IMG/VR virus record: IMGVR_UViG_2537561936_000014
Span: 1-44,077 of that record
Length of the DNA stretch: 44,077 nt
Direction: 5' to 3' (one strand)
Origin: a virus
Lineage: Duplodnaviria; Heunggongvirae; Uroviricota; Caudoviricetes
This document shows positions 26,101 through 32,100 of this stretch, one piece after another (the stretch's first letter is position 1; every line of letters begins with the position of its first letter). A program made the position numbers.

Positions 26101-29100
26101 AATATTGAGTCACCAACTCGTCTGAAAATCAAAGGCAGCCTGCATCGTCAGGTTATTGCGATTCAGGACGAGTCTGTCTCGAAGGATGTGAACAACATTA
26201 TTTTCACGCCTGTTCAGCAGGTTGATGATTTTAATGTGGAAAATCCCGATGCGATCTATCTCGGTGAGTACGGAGGCGTCCAGTTCGCTTTTTCACGAAT
26301 GGAGAGCCGTTATCAGCAGTCGGGTATTTTTCATTATCGCGGCATGGCGATTTTGCCAACCATGCGTTCCCAGATTATCGACTGCGAGGAGGATATCAGC
26401 GACGAGCAGATCATCTCTAACAGCATCCCGATCTGGCTGCAAATGAAAGATGCCGCGACCGTGTATCCGTCTTACCTGGTACCGCAGAACCTTCGCCCAC
26501 CGTATATCGCGGTGGATGTTCGCAACAGTATTCCGTTGCAGGTGGCTCCCGTTGTTTTCGGCGGTGAGCGGTTTCAGCTCGTCCAGGATTCGGTTCGCCT
26601 GACGCTTTACGGATTCAGCAACAAAATGGCGCTGGATCTTGTCGACTCGGTGGTGAACAGGGCGCTGGAGGAGGAAAGGTTTGGTGTAACCAATATTCCG
26701 GTGGTTCAGGACGCAAAGTCGGGACAGGTTGAAATCAACGCTCTGGCGAAGAAAAAGATTGTCGATTTTGACGTGAATTACTACCAGAGCACCGCCCGGG
26801 AAATGTCCCGGCAGTTGATTGAAAAAGTTATTTGTAAATATGAGGTTAAATAATGGGATTTAATATCGTCACGGTGAATGTGTCCCAGAGCATCGGGGCC
26901 ATTCCCTCGAATTTGCAGCAGATGTCTGCGGTTCTCTCGTTTGGTTCCACGACTCATGAGCCGGGAAAACCCGTATTACTCACCCGTAATCAGGACATTA
27001 ACGAACTGGTTAAAAATCCGATTGCTGCCTTGTCGGCGGCTGCCGCAGGAAAATCTGCGGCAAACGTCACCGTTACGATGACGCTTCCGGAAGGGAGCAA
27101 CATCCGACGCGAAAACAGTTCTGAGGTGAAAATTGTTGTTTCCGGGTGTTCGCCCGACGCGTGGAATGGCGAATATACTGCTACCGTCACGGATGAAAAA
27201 ACACTGACCTGGACTATTACTGGTTCTCAGCTTTCCGGTTCGCCAGTGACACTGGGGCAGTTTTCCATTGCTGGCAGTGAAAATCTGGTGACGGCAGTAA
27301 ACACGTTTTTTGCCCAGGGAAATTCAGTTGGAATTTACCTGCTGGAGCTGGGAGTACAGAAAGGCGGAGTCAGTAAGGAAATCGCTGCGCTGAAATCTTA
27401 TATGGAAGATCCGCTCCTGCGTTTTTATGCGTATCTGGTGCCGCAGCCGTGGGATGGTGACGCAGAATTTATCAGTCTGGCAAAACTCCACACCGCCAAC
27501 GAAGCGATGCAGTATTTCTTCGTGCTGACGAAAACGCCGGACGACATGAATTACGTTTCGCCTTATGCCGGTATTAAGTCGGTTATTGCAACGGCGGATG
27601 ATACGTACCCGGCGACAAACGCGGCAGCAGCCGTAATGTGGAACTATGTTTCCGCATCACCTTCAGAAATCAACAAGGTGCCGCCGATGGCATTTCGCTA
27701 TCTGCAGGCGGTAAACGCCCACAAGGGCAAAAATTCCATTCTGGCCACGATGACAAAGCAGAATATTAACTACGTCGATACGGGTGCTGAGGGTGGAATT
27801 TCCAACACGATTCTGGTGAAAGGCGTTACCAGTGACGGTAACGATATGACGTACTGGTATTCCGTAGACTGGGTGCAGATTAACGTCGATATGCAGCTCG
27901 CCAACACGGTGATCAACGGCAGCAATAACCCAATTAACCCGCTTTACTACAACCAGGACGGAATCGACCGTCTACAGCAGGTCGCACAGGCGGTGTTCAA
28001 TACGGGCGTATCTTACGGCCTGGTCAACGGCCAGCCTGTCGTCGATGCAGTGCCTTTCCGCCAGTATATCAACACTAATCCGAATGATTACGGTATCGGG
28101 CGTTATGCAGGCCTTTCGGCCTCCTATACGCCGATGCGCGGATTTGTCGAAATCATTTTTAACATCAATGTGACAATGCAGCTTTCGTGAGGGACTGAAC
28201 CGTGCCTAATCCAATGATCCCCGTTGGCACCCTTAACCGGGTTCGCGCCAGCGTTAAATTCACCTCTCATTCCGAACTGAATGTGTCCGCCTCATTTCTG
28301 GCAAAAGAAGGCGTCGAATTGTCCTTTCAGGGCAATATCACGGAGTTTTTACCCGCTATGACGGGAGCTGTGCAGTCGCCGCAGCCATACATGATTTTAC
28401 AGGCGCGTGTTCATCTGCTGCGTAGCCAGGCGCTGGGAAAACAATTCAAGGCGCAATGGGAAAAAAACGCCACGATCGGCGACGCAAAAGTGTATAGCGA
28501 CAGCACGGTATTCGGTGACTTCGATATCTATAACACGGCGATCACCAACGTGCAGGATATGACCTTCGCTGGGGGCGAGCCGGGTGTGGCCATCACCATT
28601 ACCGGTACGTATTACATCAACTCTGAAATGTGGGATCTGGTATGAAAATCTCCCGAAATCTGAATCTGATTATTCCTGTCCGGACAGAAAAGGGTAACGG
28701 CTGGATCCATGCCACGCCGATCAGCAAAGAGGTGTTTAAAGAGCATTTCTTCATTCTGAGTAAAACTTTTTCTGCCATTTTTTCTGAAGGTCTTGGCGTC
28801 GTTGCGGGTCCGCGTATCGCCTGCCTTATGCTGGAACGGATCTCCTCAGATATGAACATCTGGGATGGCGAAAAGGGCGTTCGTAATACGCTCGTGAATG
28901 AAATCATTCGCCTTGCGAATCTGGTTTACCCAGTCGAAGGGAAAGGTTATGACACGCTCCCGCTTGATATGGCGCTGGAGCGCGGCATCGTTGAATTTGA
29001 TGATGTGGCAGGTGAACTCGTTTTTTTTACATGCGTCTCGTCGATAAACACACCGGAGCAGACGGAGCAGATGATGCTGGCAGTCAGTGGAATGTGGAAC

Positions 29101-32100
29101 AGTCGCACTTCATCCTTGAGTCTTACGGAATGGATTGCTTCATTGCCGACATTGAAGCCTGTCGCCAGTTCTGGCGCGACGGCGAGCACGTTATCAGCGA
29201 CATCCTCGACTACTCAGCCGGAGACGGATTCAGCGACATCTGGGCAAATTCCGGTCTGAATGTAAAAACAGCAGCTCAGTTTCGTGAGCTGCGTAAATGC
29301 ACGACGCCGGGAGGTGTATTGAATGTCAGGTAATCAGATGCCAGTTCTGACACTGGACGTTAATGAAGAACATCTTAAGCGACTTGAGGCGATATTTGAA
29401 AAGTATCGCAACGGGCTGATGATTGGCCCTGCCGGTACGCCTCTTAAAATACCTTCAAATATAGATCCGGGAGGTGGCGTCCGGCAGACAACTACAGGCG
29501 GAGATGCCAATCAGGCTCCCAGGAAACCATCTTCACCCGCGCCAGTTTCGGCTGCTTCCACTGATGGACGTTTAAGGGATGAAAAAGGGCGCTTTGTTGG
29601 AAGCGGGAAAACACCTGATTCGCTGGTGAGCAACTATAAAGGTCGCGGCGAAACGATGTTTGATAAGTACCTCAGCGGGCTGGGTAAAAACGCTCAGGGG
29701 ACGCTGAAAACTTACAAACAGATCAATTCAACGCTTAAAACGACTAATTCCCGGTTAAAAAGCCTGTTTAAAACCACGGTTTCGTGGGGGGCGAAAATAG
29801 CTGCAATAGGGGTTGCGGGGCCGTTTGGCTACGGCTATATGGCAAGTAAAGTCGCAGCACAGTATAGCGTGGCTCAGGGGTTAGGGGTGGAAACCGCCCA
29901 AATGCAGGCCGCACGTGCCACCTATTCGCCATATTTTTCTGGCACAGAAGATCTGGTTCAGCATCTGGCTAACGCACAGAAAAACCCGAACGATCCAAAC
30001 TATGCTGGCCTGGTTAGTCTTGGAATTGATCCGCGAGATGGTGCTGCAAAGAATCTGCCCAAACTTATGAGCGCGCTTGCATCTCTCGTTAAGCGATATA
30101 AAGGTTCAGGACTTACTCAGGGGATTCTCAACGGACAAGGGCTTGGATTTGTTGATGTCGCGACAACTAACCAGGTGGAAGCGAATCTGGACAAGATCCC
30201 CCAACTGAACGAGAAATTTGCATCAAATACCAGGTTGCTCGGTGCTTACCTCACGCCAGCTATGCAGTCAGGTTATCAGGACACGGTGAGTAACCTGATG
30301 GTAAATGGAAACAGAATATCAAATTCCTGGTATGCAGCTCTCGCCAGATATAACCCACTAATCACAGGTGCATCTGATGGGCTGACATCCAATATTGAAG
30401 GTTTTCTGAATGGTGGAAATTTTCAGAAAATTCTCACTGAGGCTGGCGAAGGGCTGGAGAAACTTGGTAAGTGGCTGAATAGCGAACAATTTAAAAATGA
30501 TCTTGACGATTTTTCTCTGGCGGTGAGCCGGATTGCAAAAGCAATATGGTCAGCTATCAAATGGATCGGTGGGGAAGATAAATATCTCCCCGGAACCGGA
30601 GTTGGTGCTGAACAGGCAGATCCAGTTCTTGCGGCATTTGGAAATAAATATCTCAGTGGTGCGTTGCCGGGAGCAAACCCGATGACAAATCAGTATACGG
30701 GTGAGTTTTATAAACAGGATGATGTATATAAAAATTACCGTATGCCTAATGATTTAAAGAGAAATATTCAGAACTTTGTAGAGCAAGCCAATAATACTTA
30801 TCGACTTCCTAAAAATATGATGTCAGCTATCGCAGAAGTTGAATCTTCGTGGAATCCTCTGGCAAGAGGAACTCCAGATGAAAAAGGTAGATTCGCTAAG
30901 GGGTTGTGGCAATTCTGGGATAGCACCGCAAAACAGTATGGTCTGGTGGGTGATGATGTTTATGATCCAAATAAATCCACTCTTGCGGCTGGCCGCTTTT
31001 TAAATGATCTGAATCGGCGTTATAAAGGCGATGTGGCAAAAATGCTTACGGCATATAACGGAGGTCGTATTGATAGAGATGGAAATCTAAGTTTGAGAAT
31101 GGAGACTGTAAAATATTTAATTAAATTATTGCCTCAGATTCAGGGAGCCTTGGATCAACACCCTGGTATTATGAGTCAGCTAAGAAATGCCAGAGATAAC
31201 CTTCAGGGTGCTGGCAAAAATGCCCGCGCAATAATTGAGCTTCAGGTGCGACAATCGCCGGGTTCCGACATACTGGCACAACTCGCCGGAACGCAACAAA
31301 TACCGGGGTAAAAGATGTCACTTAATTACTTTGGGCAGGCTTTCAAACTGGCGTTTGAAGTCTCGCCCATTCTTTTGGTTGACGGCATAGCGTCGAAAAT
31401 TCCCGGCGGGGTAATGCCGATTGCTGTTTTGACCGAAGGCCTAAGCATAGCGAACGGTCTGCTGCATGGAGAGATTCATACACGCTCGATGGTGGCATTC
31501 ACGCCAATGGCCGGGACAACGCTGGTACAGCAGGATATCTGCAACCTGAATTTCTATAACCAGGTAACGGCAGCGAATGCGACCGTCAGGAAGCCTAACC
31601 GGGTAGTCATGCAGATGATCCGTCCGGCATCAACGGAGGACGGTGGCTACACCACGAAGGGGATGACGTTTACGGCGCTGAAAATGGCGCTTGATATGCA
31701 TAACCAGTATGGCGGTTGCTACACCGTTCTGACTCCCTCGTTTATCTACACGCGCTGCCTGATGCGGTCGTTTATCGATACATCCGGTTTCTCTGAGCAG
31801 AACAAGCAAGTGCAGCACACCTGGCAGATTGAGTTTGAGCAACCATTGTCGTCTGTCGAACAAACAGTAAAGACGCTGGCGAGCGTTCTGGATAAATTTG
31901 ATAAAGGGATGCCGTCAGACGGGCCGCTATCGTGGTCAGGTATTAAGAACCAGGTCGTGCAGGAGTTTGGTATTGGCTTATGACAACGTTAATTCCTTTC
32001 AAACCGGACGGGCGAGGTCCGTTTCAGTTCACGGCCAGAATCGGAGAATATGAAACATTCGCCCGCGTTCCGTTTAATCTGTACGCAAACCGTTACTATC

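What the first reader, a model, noticed from the sequence alone, without database searches (positions are those of the whole stretch)
29016..29333. Candidate programmed -1 frameshift at a T-TTT-TTT site in the tail assembly chaperone
The chaperone-like ORF contains a T8 run (29021-29028). A -1 slip there enters a frame open to 29333, ending just past the tape-measure start, which is the arrangement expected for G/GT-type chaperone products. Unusually, the zero frame continues about 230 nt beyond the slip site instead of stopping soon after. A T8 run could also support transcriptional slippage.
Basis: partly seen in the sequence, partly recalled or inferred. Interest (0 to 1): 0.45.

Follow-up and report, generated by a model that had tools for sequence, protein, structure and literature searches.

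The report
Conserved tail-chaperone frameshift with long overlap
A run of T's in a prophage tail-assembly gene is very probably a real, evolutionarily conserved "slip back one base" signal that makes a second, longer protein; it is unusual because the two reading frames then overlap for about 230 bases and both appear to encode conserved protein.

Summary
T8 lies at 29021-29028. The zero-frame codons GTT TTT TTT place the heptamer T_TTT_TTT (29022-29028) in the right phase. The -1 frame is open from 29016 to 29333, ending 11 nt past the tape-measure ATG (29323). The zero frame runs on to 29259.

Comparative evidence supports a programmed -1 recoding site of the lambda G/GT or P2 E/E+E' kind. 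In 28 distinct loci (N-domains about 20-56% identical, G+C 44-66%), every one has T_TTT_TTY in the same phase: 14 with T7, 14 with T8. Every -1 extension carries a conserved ~100-aa "T" domain that ends at the next gene. Most lineages have no start codon at the head of the -1 frame.

The unusual feature is also real and conserved. The zero frame continues 54-87 codons past the slip site; annotated chaperone frameshifts average 26-36 nt. AlphaFold puts the slip site inside a helix of a confidently folded G protein. Residues 130-170 are part of that fold, and a conserved (V/I/L)-P-x C-terminus follows.

No downstream RNA structure was found. An upstream Shine-Dalgarno-like element is possible. 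Ribosomal slippage is favoured over transcriptional slippage, which is not excluded. No curated family or solved fold matches. Verdict: new variant of a known kind. No experimental proof.

The parts
26853..28190 (+). tail sheath gene (445 aa); synteny anchor
   Evidence: phrog_205 'tail sheath', E 1.3e-53
28202..28645 (+). putative tail tube gene (147 aa)
   Evidence: Identified by position after the sheath gene only; phrog_6566, unknown function. Inferred.
28642..29259 (+). G: zero-frame chaperone-like protein, 205 aa
   Evidence: ORF. The family has 606 clusters at 50% identity, mostly 186-200 aa. AF2 model pLDDT 89, ordered to about residue 170. No Pfam or NCBIfam hit.
29010..29015 (+). AGGTGA, Shine-Dalgarno-like element 6 nt upstream of the heptamer (possible 5' stimulator; unproven)
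   Evidence: Anti-SD duplex -6.8 kcal/mol. A similar element lies 5-16 nt upstream in about 8 of 10 lineages; combined p about 6e-4, confounded by conserved Glu-Val/Gly codons.
29013..29015 (+). last stop codon (TGA) of the -1 frame before the slip site
29022..29028 (+). slippery heptamer T_TTT_TTT (within T8 29021-29028)
   Evidence: In phase. It is the only phased heptamer in the productive interval. Conserved as T_TTT_TTY in 28/28 distinct loci. F129 is invariant and F128 >90% conserved in 138 cluster representatives.
29028..29333 (+). -1 frame extension ('T' domain): 101 codons plus stop, read from TAC 29028-30
   Evidence: Conserved domain (YG..F..D[IV][DE].GR...LL.W...EGF...[FY]R.R) in all lineages. 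T-domain HMM E 1e-22 to 1e-39 on 20 independently sampled loci. Matches phrog_14324.
28642..29333 (+). GT: predicted trans-frame product, 129 + 101 = 230 aa (28642-29028 joined to 29028-29333)
   Evidence: Junction ...GELVFF|YMRLVDK. The same junction is seen as an in-frame protein in T9 assemblies (P0001, P0198, P0199).
29029..29256 (+). dual-coding overlap (76 zero-frame codons)
   Evidence: Third-position variability falls from 81% in the N-only region to 33-39% here. Across 28 loci there are 0 stops in either coding frame and 80 in the third frame. ORF-maintenance resampling gives 1.7e-8 and 3e-12.
29323..31311 (+). tape-measure-like protein with C-terminal SLT lytic transglycosylase domain (662 aa)
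   Evidence: Pfam SLT E 1.3e-20, residues 486-583. The homologue in Klebsiella phage RothD is annotated 'tape measure protein'.

Best explanation
The gene at 28642-29259 is the tail assembly chaperone of a contractile-tailed prophage of E. coli W, about 98% identical to phage Rac-SA53. Most ribosomes read it in the zero frame and make G (205 aa). A minority slip back one nucleotide by tandem re-pairing of two tRNA-Phe when codons TTT (29023-25) and TTT (29026-28) occupy the P and A sites. Those ribosomes continue in the -1 frame from TAC 29028 to TAA 29333 and make GT (230 aa). GT consists of the first 129 residues of G followed by a 101-residue helical T domain. By analogy with lambda G/GT and P2 E/E+E', G would coat the tape-measure protein and the T domain of the rare GT would recruit the tube protein. 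Unlike the classical cases, the slip site lies in the middle of the folded G protein. G and GT therefore differ by a whole C-terminal module, and the two modules are encoded by the same 171-264 nt in two frames. Shown here: the anatomy, its conservation and the coding signal in both frames. Inferred: that slippage occurs, that it is ribosomal, its efficiency, and the binding partners.
For: Synteny is sheath, putative tube, G/T, then an SLT-containing tape-measure-like gene. The heptamer is in phase and is the only one in the productive interval. T_TTT_TTY is conserved in 28/28 distinct loci: 20 were sampled with an N-domain pattern that does not involve the T run and 8 came from protein searches. 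G+C ranges 44-66%. The background expectation for NNT TTT TTY is 0.10 per locus. T7 and T8 are equally frequent (14 each), so the conserved unit is the heptamer. Phe-Phe is (nearly) invariant in 138 cluster representatives. The residue before it varies but is always one that has an NNT codon. The residue after it is mostly Thr/Ile/Met, giving Tyr in the -1 frame. The -1 extension is 89-117 aa in all loci, carries a conserved domain and ends at or just inside the next gene. A start codon next to the slip site is present in only 3 of 9 deep lineages. The T domain is almost never called as a gene: 20 hits among 5.8 billion proteins. Assemblies with T9 encode exactly the predicted fusion. U_UU.U_UU.Y belongs to the class of most efficient -1 motifs in E. 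coli and shifts at >0.1% without stimulators (Sharma et al. 2014, PMC4066793). P2 uses T_TTT_TTG in the same phase, and its E+E' product ends 8 nt past its tape-measure start.
Against: There is no protein or reporter evidence. No downstream stimulatory RNA structure was found in any of 10 lineages (z from -1.4 to +0.95), although lambda G/GT, to my knowledge, also lacks one. G matches no known chaperone family by sequence and only weakly by fold. The slip site is 231 nt from the zero-frame stop, against a mean of 26-36 nt in annotated chaperone frameshifts (PMC10885494). Two of about 139 full-length cluster representatives have Tyr-Phe instead of Phe-Phe, and their DNA could not be retrieved. 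A T run can also slip during transcription and would give the same protein. The loci are not phylogenetically independent, so the quoted probabilities overstate significance.
Confidence: 0.72

Rival explanations
1. The same fusion protein GT is made by transcriptional slippage. RNA polymerase adds one extra U on the T7/T8 tract, and standard translation of the U+1 mRNA yields N-domain plus T domain.
For: A homopolymeric T tract is the classical substrate. UUUUUUU is under-represented in all frames of E. coli genes, possibly for this reason (PMC4066793). The product would be identical, so no comparative signal at the protein level can separate the two mechanisms. DNA-level length variants (T7, T9) in assemblies show the tract is slippage-prone for polymerases in general.
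Against: Efficient bacterial RNAP slippage is described for runs of 9 A/T, matching the 9-10 bp hybrid (Atkins et al. 2016, PMC5009743). Here half of the loci have only T7 and none has a conserved run longer than 8. The tract is always in the phase needed for tandem tRNA slippage, which transcriptional slippage does not require, although the conserved Phe-Phe confounds this. The family allows TTC as the last codon (L020), which shortens the run but keeps a good ribosomal motif.
Confidence: 0.15
2. The -1 ORF is an independent overlapping gene (100 aa) initiated at ATG 29031, not a frameshift extension.
For: ATG 29031 follows the T run directly, and AGGTGA lies upstream. PHROGs and some annotations treat the 97-aa ORF as a protein of its own (phrog_14324; Yersinia similis BF17_21425).
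Against: The ATG is 15 nt from the SD-like element, which is poor spacing. In 6 of 9 deep lineages there is no ATG/GTG/TTG within the first codons of the -1 extension, and likewise in most of the 20 independently sampled loci. The conserved T-frame residue at that position is the Tyr created by the slip, and the T run is conserved at the nucleotide level where a start site would not need it.
Confidence: 0.03
3. The T8 tract is a mutation or sequencing error in what is really one continuous gene (true length T9, encoding N+T), or a pseudogenising indel in a decaying prophage.
For: T9 versions exist in 6 Logan contigs from at least 2 samples and in one JGI metagenome contig. T7 versions exist in three assemblies.
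Against: T8 or T7 in the frameshift-requiring configuration is found in cultured lytic and temperate phages (Rac-SA53, pPE4, RothC/D, Chronis, PdC23, QDWS), in complete E. coli genomes (92 genomes) and in 28/28 diverse loci. The zero-frame continuation is itself conserved, folded and stop-free, which a simple error model does not predict. The T7 cases come from visibly fragmented assemblies, and a second assembly of the same protein has T8.
Confidence: 0.03
4. Only one frame matters. The zero-frame continuation (residues 130-205) is a tolerated, functionless read-through of the T-domain coding sequence.
For: Residues 171-205 are Ser/Thr-rich and predicted disordered. In close relatives the T-domain core (29143-29256) shows the -1 frame as the dominant constraint.
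Against: Family members are 174-273 aa with a conserved motif (LW...TS...TEF..SLPTS; S167/L168 >90%). AF2 pLDDT is 94-98 for residues 130-170. The (V/I/L)-P-x C-terminus occurs in about 60% of 138 representatives, at positions that vary relative to the T domain. There are 0 zero-frame stops in 28 x 50 codons against 80 in the third frame. The probability that the zero frame stays open given the T protein is 1.7e-8 over 9 lineages.
Confidence: 0.05

Closest known systems
Phage P2 E / E+E' tail assembly proteins (-1 frameshift at T_TTT_TTG)
   Same: Contractile-tailed phage with gene order sheath, tube, chaperone pair, tape measure. The heptamer is almost identical and in the same phase. The trans-frame product ends a few nt inside the tape-measure gene: 8 nt in P2, 11 nt here.
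   Different: P2 E is 91 aa and its slip site is 20 nt before the E stop. Here G is 205 aa and the slip site is 231 nt before the stop, inside a predicted helix of the folded protein. No detectable sequence relationship (hhalign probability 0.2-0.3%).
Phage lambda G / GT (Levin et al. 1993; Xu, Hendrix and Duda 2004, 2013, 2014, as summarised in PMC5009743)
   Same: Two products share an N-terminus and are made by low-level -1 frameshifting between the tube and tape-measure genes. The inferred division of labour is that the G part binds the tape measure and the T part binds the tube protein. No strong downstream structure.
   Different: The slippery site differs (G_GGA_AAG in lambda). In lambda GT contains essentially all of G; here GT lacks the last ~76 residues of G, about 40 of them predicted folded. 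The overlap is 6-9 times the mean reported for annotated chaperone frameshifts (26-36 nt; PMC10885494). No sequence or confident fold similarity.
E. coli dnaX -1 frameshift (5' Shine-Dalgarno-like stimulator)
   Same: An SD-like element lies a few to about 14 nt upstream of the slip site in most lineages.
   Different: dnaX also has a strong 3' hairpin and uses A_AAA_AAG. Here the SD-like element is not universal (absent in 2 of 10 lineages), its spacing varies (3-16 nt), and it coincides with conserved Glu/Val/Gly codons. Function untested.
Programmed transcriptional slippage (Thermus dnaX T9, Shigella mxiE/spa genes)
   Same: A homopolymeric T tract with a trans-frame product.
   Different: Those systems use runs of 9, or shorter runs plus a nascent-RNA hairpin. 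Here the runs are T7/T8 and the conserved unit is a phased heptamer.

Membership tests
G/GT-type tail assembly chaperone with programmed -1 frameshift (lambda G/GT, P2 E/E+E') | Gene pair lies between the tail tube gene and the tape-measure gene | tested here: met
   Sheath (phrog_205) 26853-28190, putative tube 28202-28645, G/T 28642-29333, SLT-containing tape-measure-like gene 29323-31311. The order is the same in all relatives examined. Tube identity is positional only.
G/GT-type tail assembly chaperone with programmed -1 frameshift (lambda G/GT, P2 E/E+E') | Downstream ORF is in the -1 frame, overlaps the upstream ORF and has no conserved initiation signal of its own | tested here: met
   -1 relation shown. 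A start codon at the head of the -1 extension is present in only 3 of 9 deep lineages.
G/GT-type tail assembly chaperone with programmed -1 frameshift (lambda G/GT, P2 E/E+E') | Slippery X_XXY_YYZ heptamer in zero-frame phase, conserved among relatives | tested here: met
   T_TTT_TTY in 28/28 distinct loci. Phe-Phe (nearly) invariant in 138 cluster representatives.
G/GT-type tail assembly chaperone with programmed -1 frameshift (lambda G/GT, P2 E/E+E') | [quoted passage not shown] | tested here: not met
   231 nt from heptamer to zero-frame stop here, and 54-87 codons in the family. The mean is 26 nt (SEA-PHAGES) or 36 nt (Xu et al. set) according to PMC10885494.
G/GT-type tail assembly chaperone with programmed -1 frameshift (lambda G/GT, P2 E/E+E') | Sequence membership in a described chaperone family (Pfam/NCBIfam models, P2 gpE) | tested here: not met
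   No Pfam or NCBIfam hit for G or T. PHROGs 11810 and 14324 are 'unknown function'. hhalign against P2 E and E' gives probability 0.2-0.3%. PDB sequence profile search found nothing.
G/GT-type tail assembly chaperone with programmed -1 frameshift (lambda G/GT, P2 E/E+E') | Fold similarity to known tail assembly chaperones | tested here: inconclusive
G/GT-type tail assembly chaperone with programmed -1 frameshift (lambda G/GT, P2 E/E+E') | Two products made in a fixed ratio, both required for tail assembly and absent from virions | not testable with these tools
   Needs immunoblot or mass spectrometry plus genetics.
Programmed transcriptional slippage | Homopolymer of about 9 or more A/T, or a shorter run with an adjacent nascent-RNA hairpin | tested here: not met
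   Run lengths are 14 x T7 and 14 x T8. The criterion is from PMC5009743. An upstream hairpin was not specifically searched for.
Programmed transcriptional slippage | Heterogeneous mRNA population with an extra U at the tract | not testable with these tools
   Needs cDNA deep sequencing.
Independent overlapping gene | Conserved start codon and ribosome-binding site for the -1 ORF | tested here: not met

The most novel reading that the evidence does not exclude
The slip site sits inside the folded chaperone, so the phage makes two proteins that share 129 residues and then diverge into two different, separately conserved C-terminal modules. One is a ~40-residue folded subdomain plus a disordered tail ending in (V/I/L)-P-x. 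The other is a ~100-residue helical T domain. Both are encoded by the same 170-260 nt in two frames and maintained across several hundred protein clusters. That would make this one of the longest and most deeply conserved truly dual-coding stretches attached to a tail-chaperone frameshift. It would imply that G has a partner-binding function that GT must lack, and the reverse, rather than GT being simply 'G plus T'.
Probability: 0.55. Interest if true: 0.6.

Novelty: new variant of a known kind. Interest (0 to 1): 0.5.

Why it matters
First, it gives a function, and a missing protein product, to two "hypothetical" gene families: phrog_11810 and phrog_14324, with 606 clusters at 50% identity. 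These are unannotated in every record examined, including cultured Escherichia, Klebsiella, Pantoea and Shewanella phages and many E. coli prophages.

Second, it shows that the chaperone frameshift rule extends to a family with no detectable similarity to known chaperones.

Third, it breaks the assumption built into frameshift predictors that the slip site lies close to the zero-frame stop. PRFect uses that distance as a feature and misses sites more than 30-50 nt away (PMC10885494). Sites of this kind will therefore be missed systematically.

Fourth, the long overlap with two conserved frames is a clean natural system for studying how two protein modules co-evolve on one stretch of DNA.

Tried and rejected
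- **Trans-frame fusion as a query.** The N-domain alone was used instead.
- **An early misreading.** Relatives L009, L010 and L012 appeared to have a short G (133-139 aa) stopping just after the slip site, which would have made the long zero frame a quirk of this lineage. This was wrong. Those assemblies carry T7, which throws the N-domain into the +1 frame (FLHASRR*). L009/L010 are visibly fragmented, and another assembly of the same protein has T8. The Yersinia similis locus is a rearranged remnant.
- **Locus retrieval.** The search for related loci with family alignments failed because no stretch was conserved enough. Single distant proteins gave 0-3 loci. The genome-contig scan gave one locus. 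A degenerate N-domain DNA pattern finally gave an unbiased sample.
- **Downstream stimulatory structure.** Folding 82 nt after the slip site in 10 lineages gave z-scores from -1.4 to +0.95, with no common hairpin.
- **GT structure.** The MSA was too shallow (17 sequences). pLDDT was 57, so only the secondary-structure trend was used (T domain helical, linker disordered) and no fold search was run.
- **The two Tyr-Phe exceptions (P0218, P0266).** No DNA is held for them.
- **Chance occurrence of the T run.** Not a useful test, because T7 runs occur at the chance level in the window.

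
Full report
**Observation.** The window is a prophage of E. coli W, 100% identical to NC_017664.1 around 1.531 Mb, and about 98% identical to phage Rac-SA53. The local gene order is as follows:

| Feature | Coordinates | Evidence |
|---|---|---|
| Tail sheath | 26853-28190 | phrog_205 |
| 147-aa putative tube gene | 28202-28645 | position only |
| 205-aa ORF, here called G | ATG 28642, stop 29257-59 | ORF |
| 662-aa protein with C-terminal SLT domain | from ATG 29323 | Pfam SLT |

The homologue of the 662-aa protein in Klebsiella phage RothD is annotated as the tape measure. T8 is at 29021-29028. The zero-frame codons are GTT TTT TTT ACA (V127 F128 F129 T130), so T_TTT_TTT (29022-28) is a correctly phased X_XXY_YYZ heptamer. 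The -1 frame carries 12 stops across the N-terminal part of G, the last at 29013-15. It is then open for 105 codons to TAA 29331-33, 11 nt past the next gene's ATG. No other phased heptamer lies in that productive interval. The zero frame continues 231 nt. T7/T8 runs as such are at chance frequency in the window.

**Close relatives.** Rac-SA53, "Actinobacillus" phage pPE4 and E. coli prophages down to about 83% nucleotide identity all keep T8 and both open frames. In an alignment of eight close relatives, third codon positions are variable at 81% of sites in the N-terminal, single-coding part. In the overlap the three position classes are variable at 21%, 39% and 33%. This is the loss of free synonymous sites expected when two frames are read. 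In the stretch covered only by the -1 frame, the third position of that frame is again the most variable.

**An early wrong turn.** Several relatives seemed to have a short G ending just after the T run. This would have meant the classical arrangement elsewhere and an accidental long zero frame here. Inspection showed that those assemblies carry T7, which throws the N-domain into the +1 frame (stop after 6 codons). Two of them are visibly error-ridden, and another assembly of the same protein has T8. Conversely, six Logan contigs from at least two samples and one JGI metagenome contig carry T9 and encode exactly the predicted fusion, with junction VFF|Y. Tract-length variants therefore exist in databases as errors or mutations. 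They happen to display the products of -1 and +1 shifts.

**Deep conservation.**
- A search of 1.84 billion cluster representatives with the 129-residue N-domain found 606 clusters, mostly 186-200 aa.
- In an alignment of 138 of them, F129 is the only invariant column and F128 is >90% conserved.
- The preceding residue varies (V, I, T, A, C, L, S, G), but each of these has an NNT codon. The following residue is mostly T, I or M, whose A-initial codons give Tyr in the -1 frame.
- DNA was obtained for nine deep lineages: Klebsiella phages RothD/Chronis, Pantoea phage PdC23, Shewanella phage QDWS, and IMG/VR and ENA contigs.
- A further 20 distinct IMG/VR loci were found with a degenerate pattern for an N-domain peptide that does not involve the T tract. 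All are family members by HMM.
- In 28 of 28 distinct loci (G+C 44-66%) the site is NNT TTT TTY in zero-frame phase: 27 T_TTT_TTT and 1 T_TTT_TTC. Elsewhere in the same genes only 45% of Phe codons are TTT and 23% of the relevant codons end in T. The loci are not independent, but the signal is unambiguous.
- Tract length is T7 in 14 loci and T8 in 14, so the conserved unit is the heptamer.

**The -1 extension.** In all loci it is 89-117 codons and ends at or a few nucleotides inside the next gene. It carries a conserved domain (YG..F..D[IV][DE].GR...LL.W...EGF...[FY]R.R), with HMM E-values of 1e-22 to 1e-39 on the independently sampled loci. A start codon at its head is present in only 3 of 9 deep lineages. 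This rejects independent initiation at ATG 29031. The T domain is almost never called as a gene: 20 proteins among 5.8 billion.

**The zero-frame continuation is also real.**
- It is 54-87 codons in every locus.
- It has its own conserved motif (LW...TS...TEF..SLPTS; S167 and L168 >90%).
- In about 60% of representatives it ends in (V/I/L)-P-x, and that end falls at different places relative to the T domain.
- AlphaFold2 with the 138-sequence alignment gives mean pLDDT 89 and pTM 0.80. The chain is ordered to about residue 170 (pLDDT 94-98 for residues 130-170). The slip site lies inside helix 119-135, and residues 171-205 are disordered.
- Over the first 50 codons after the slip site in 28 loci there are 0 stops in the zero frame, 0 in the -1 frame and 80 in the third frame. 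Amino-acid identity is about equal in the two coding frames (0.33 and 0.32).
- Resampling synonymous codons while holding one protein fixed shows that the other frame would not stay open by chance: joint probabilities are 1.7e-8 and 3e-12 over nine lineages.

G and GT therefore share 129 residues and then carry different conserved C-terminal modules encoded in the same DNA.

**Mechanism.** U_UU.U_UU.Y belongs to the most efficient class of -1 motifs in E. coli (H_HH.U_UU.Y) and shifts above 0.1% without stimulators (Sharma et al. 2014, PMC4066793). No downstream structure is predicted in any of ten lineages. A Shine-Dalgarno-like element lies 5-16 nt upstream in about eight of ten lineages (AGGTGA at 29010-15 here; combined p about 6e-4). 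It coincides with conserved Glu/Val/Gly codons, so it remains a hypothesis. Transcriptional slippage would give the same protein. It is disfavoured because efficient bacterial RNAP slippage is described for runs of 9 (Atkins et al. 2016, PMC5009743), whereas half of the loci have T7 and one ends in C. It cannot be excluded from sequence.

**Verdict.** It is a new variant of a known kind: a conserved tail-chaperone -1 frameshift in an unannotated family, with an exceptionally long, truly dual-coding overlap and a slip site inside the folded chaperone.

Noticed in passing
L007/L008 1880-1888; L016 2898-2906; L009/L010/L012 about 2990-3000: Database assemblies carry T9 (in-frame N+T fusion; 6 Logan contigs from at least 2 samples, 1 JGI metagenome contig) or T7 (N-domain truncated after 6 codons in the +1 frame). 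These could be homopolymer sequencing errors or real indel alleles of a mutable tract. Real ones would be heritable GT-only or truncated-G variants.
   Followed up: partly
window 29029-29047: The +1 frame closes 6 codons after the T run (stop 29045-47). A -2/+1 slip or a T7 allele would therefore give a 134-135-aa N-domain-only product.
   Followed up: no
window 17150-17157: An A8 run lies inside a long + strand open frame (stop-to-stop 16916-18010). It is another homopolymer within probable coding sequence. Other T8/A8 runs (7346-7353, 14503-14510, 14547-14554) were not examined either; by stop-to-stop ORFs of 100 aa or more, the two at 14.5 kb lie outside any long open frame and 7346-7353 lies inside a minus-strand frame (6986-7459).
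   Followed up: no
L004 821-2118; L006 808-2104: In some ETEC/STEC genomes the G gene directly follows a DUF2213 gene, with no sheath or tube gene upstream. These are mosaic or deleted prophages that still keep T8 and both frames.
   Followed up: no
L013 2616-3294 (Yersinia similis CP007230.1): Prophage remnant in which the chaperone N-domain is replaced by a holin-like ORF (Phage_holin_8) that runs into the +1 frame. The T ORF is annotated there as a free-standing hypothetical protein (BF17_21425).
   Followed up: partly
L022 3103-3207 (Klebsiella phage RothD, XDI99257.1): An annotated 34-aa 'hypothetical protein' is the C-terminal piece of the -1 frame T domain.
   Followed up: yes
P0218, P0266 (cluster representatives): Two family members have Tyr-Phe instead of Phe-Phe at the slip position (ITYFIV, LVYFTV). 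No DNA is held, so it is unknown whether they use another slippery motif or have lost the frameshift.
   Followed up: partly
NZ_CP026085.1 2563940-2564631: A genome labelled E. coli DH5alpha carries this prophage at 100% identity to E. coli W. This is unexpected for a K-12 derivative and suggests a strain or label problem.
   Followed up: no
PP818812.1; OP650936.1 vs OK094664.1: Host labels look odd. An 'Actinobacillus' phage is 91% identical in nucleotides to this E. coli prophage. 'Hujiaoplasma phage zrk29-1' has the same length (47,902 bp) and identical match statistics as Shewanella phage vB_Sb_QDWS.
   Followed up: no
window 29323-31311: The tape-measure-like protein carries a C-terminal lytic transglycosylase (SLT) domain (residues 486-583), so the tail's cell-wall-degrading activity appears fused to the length-determining protein.
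   Followed up: no
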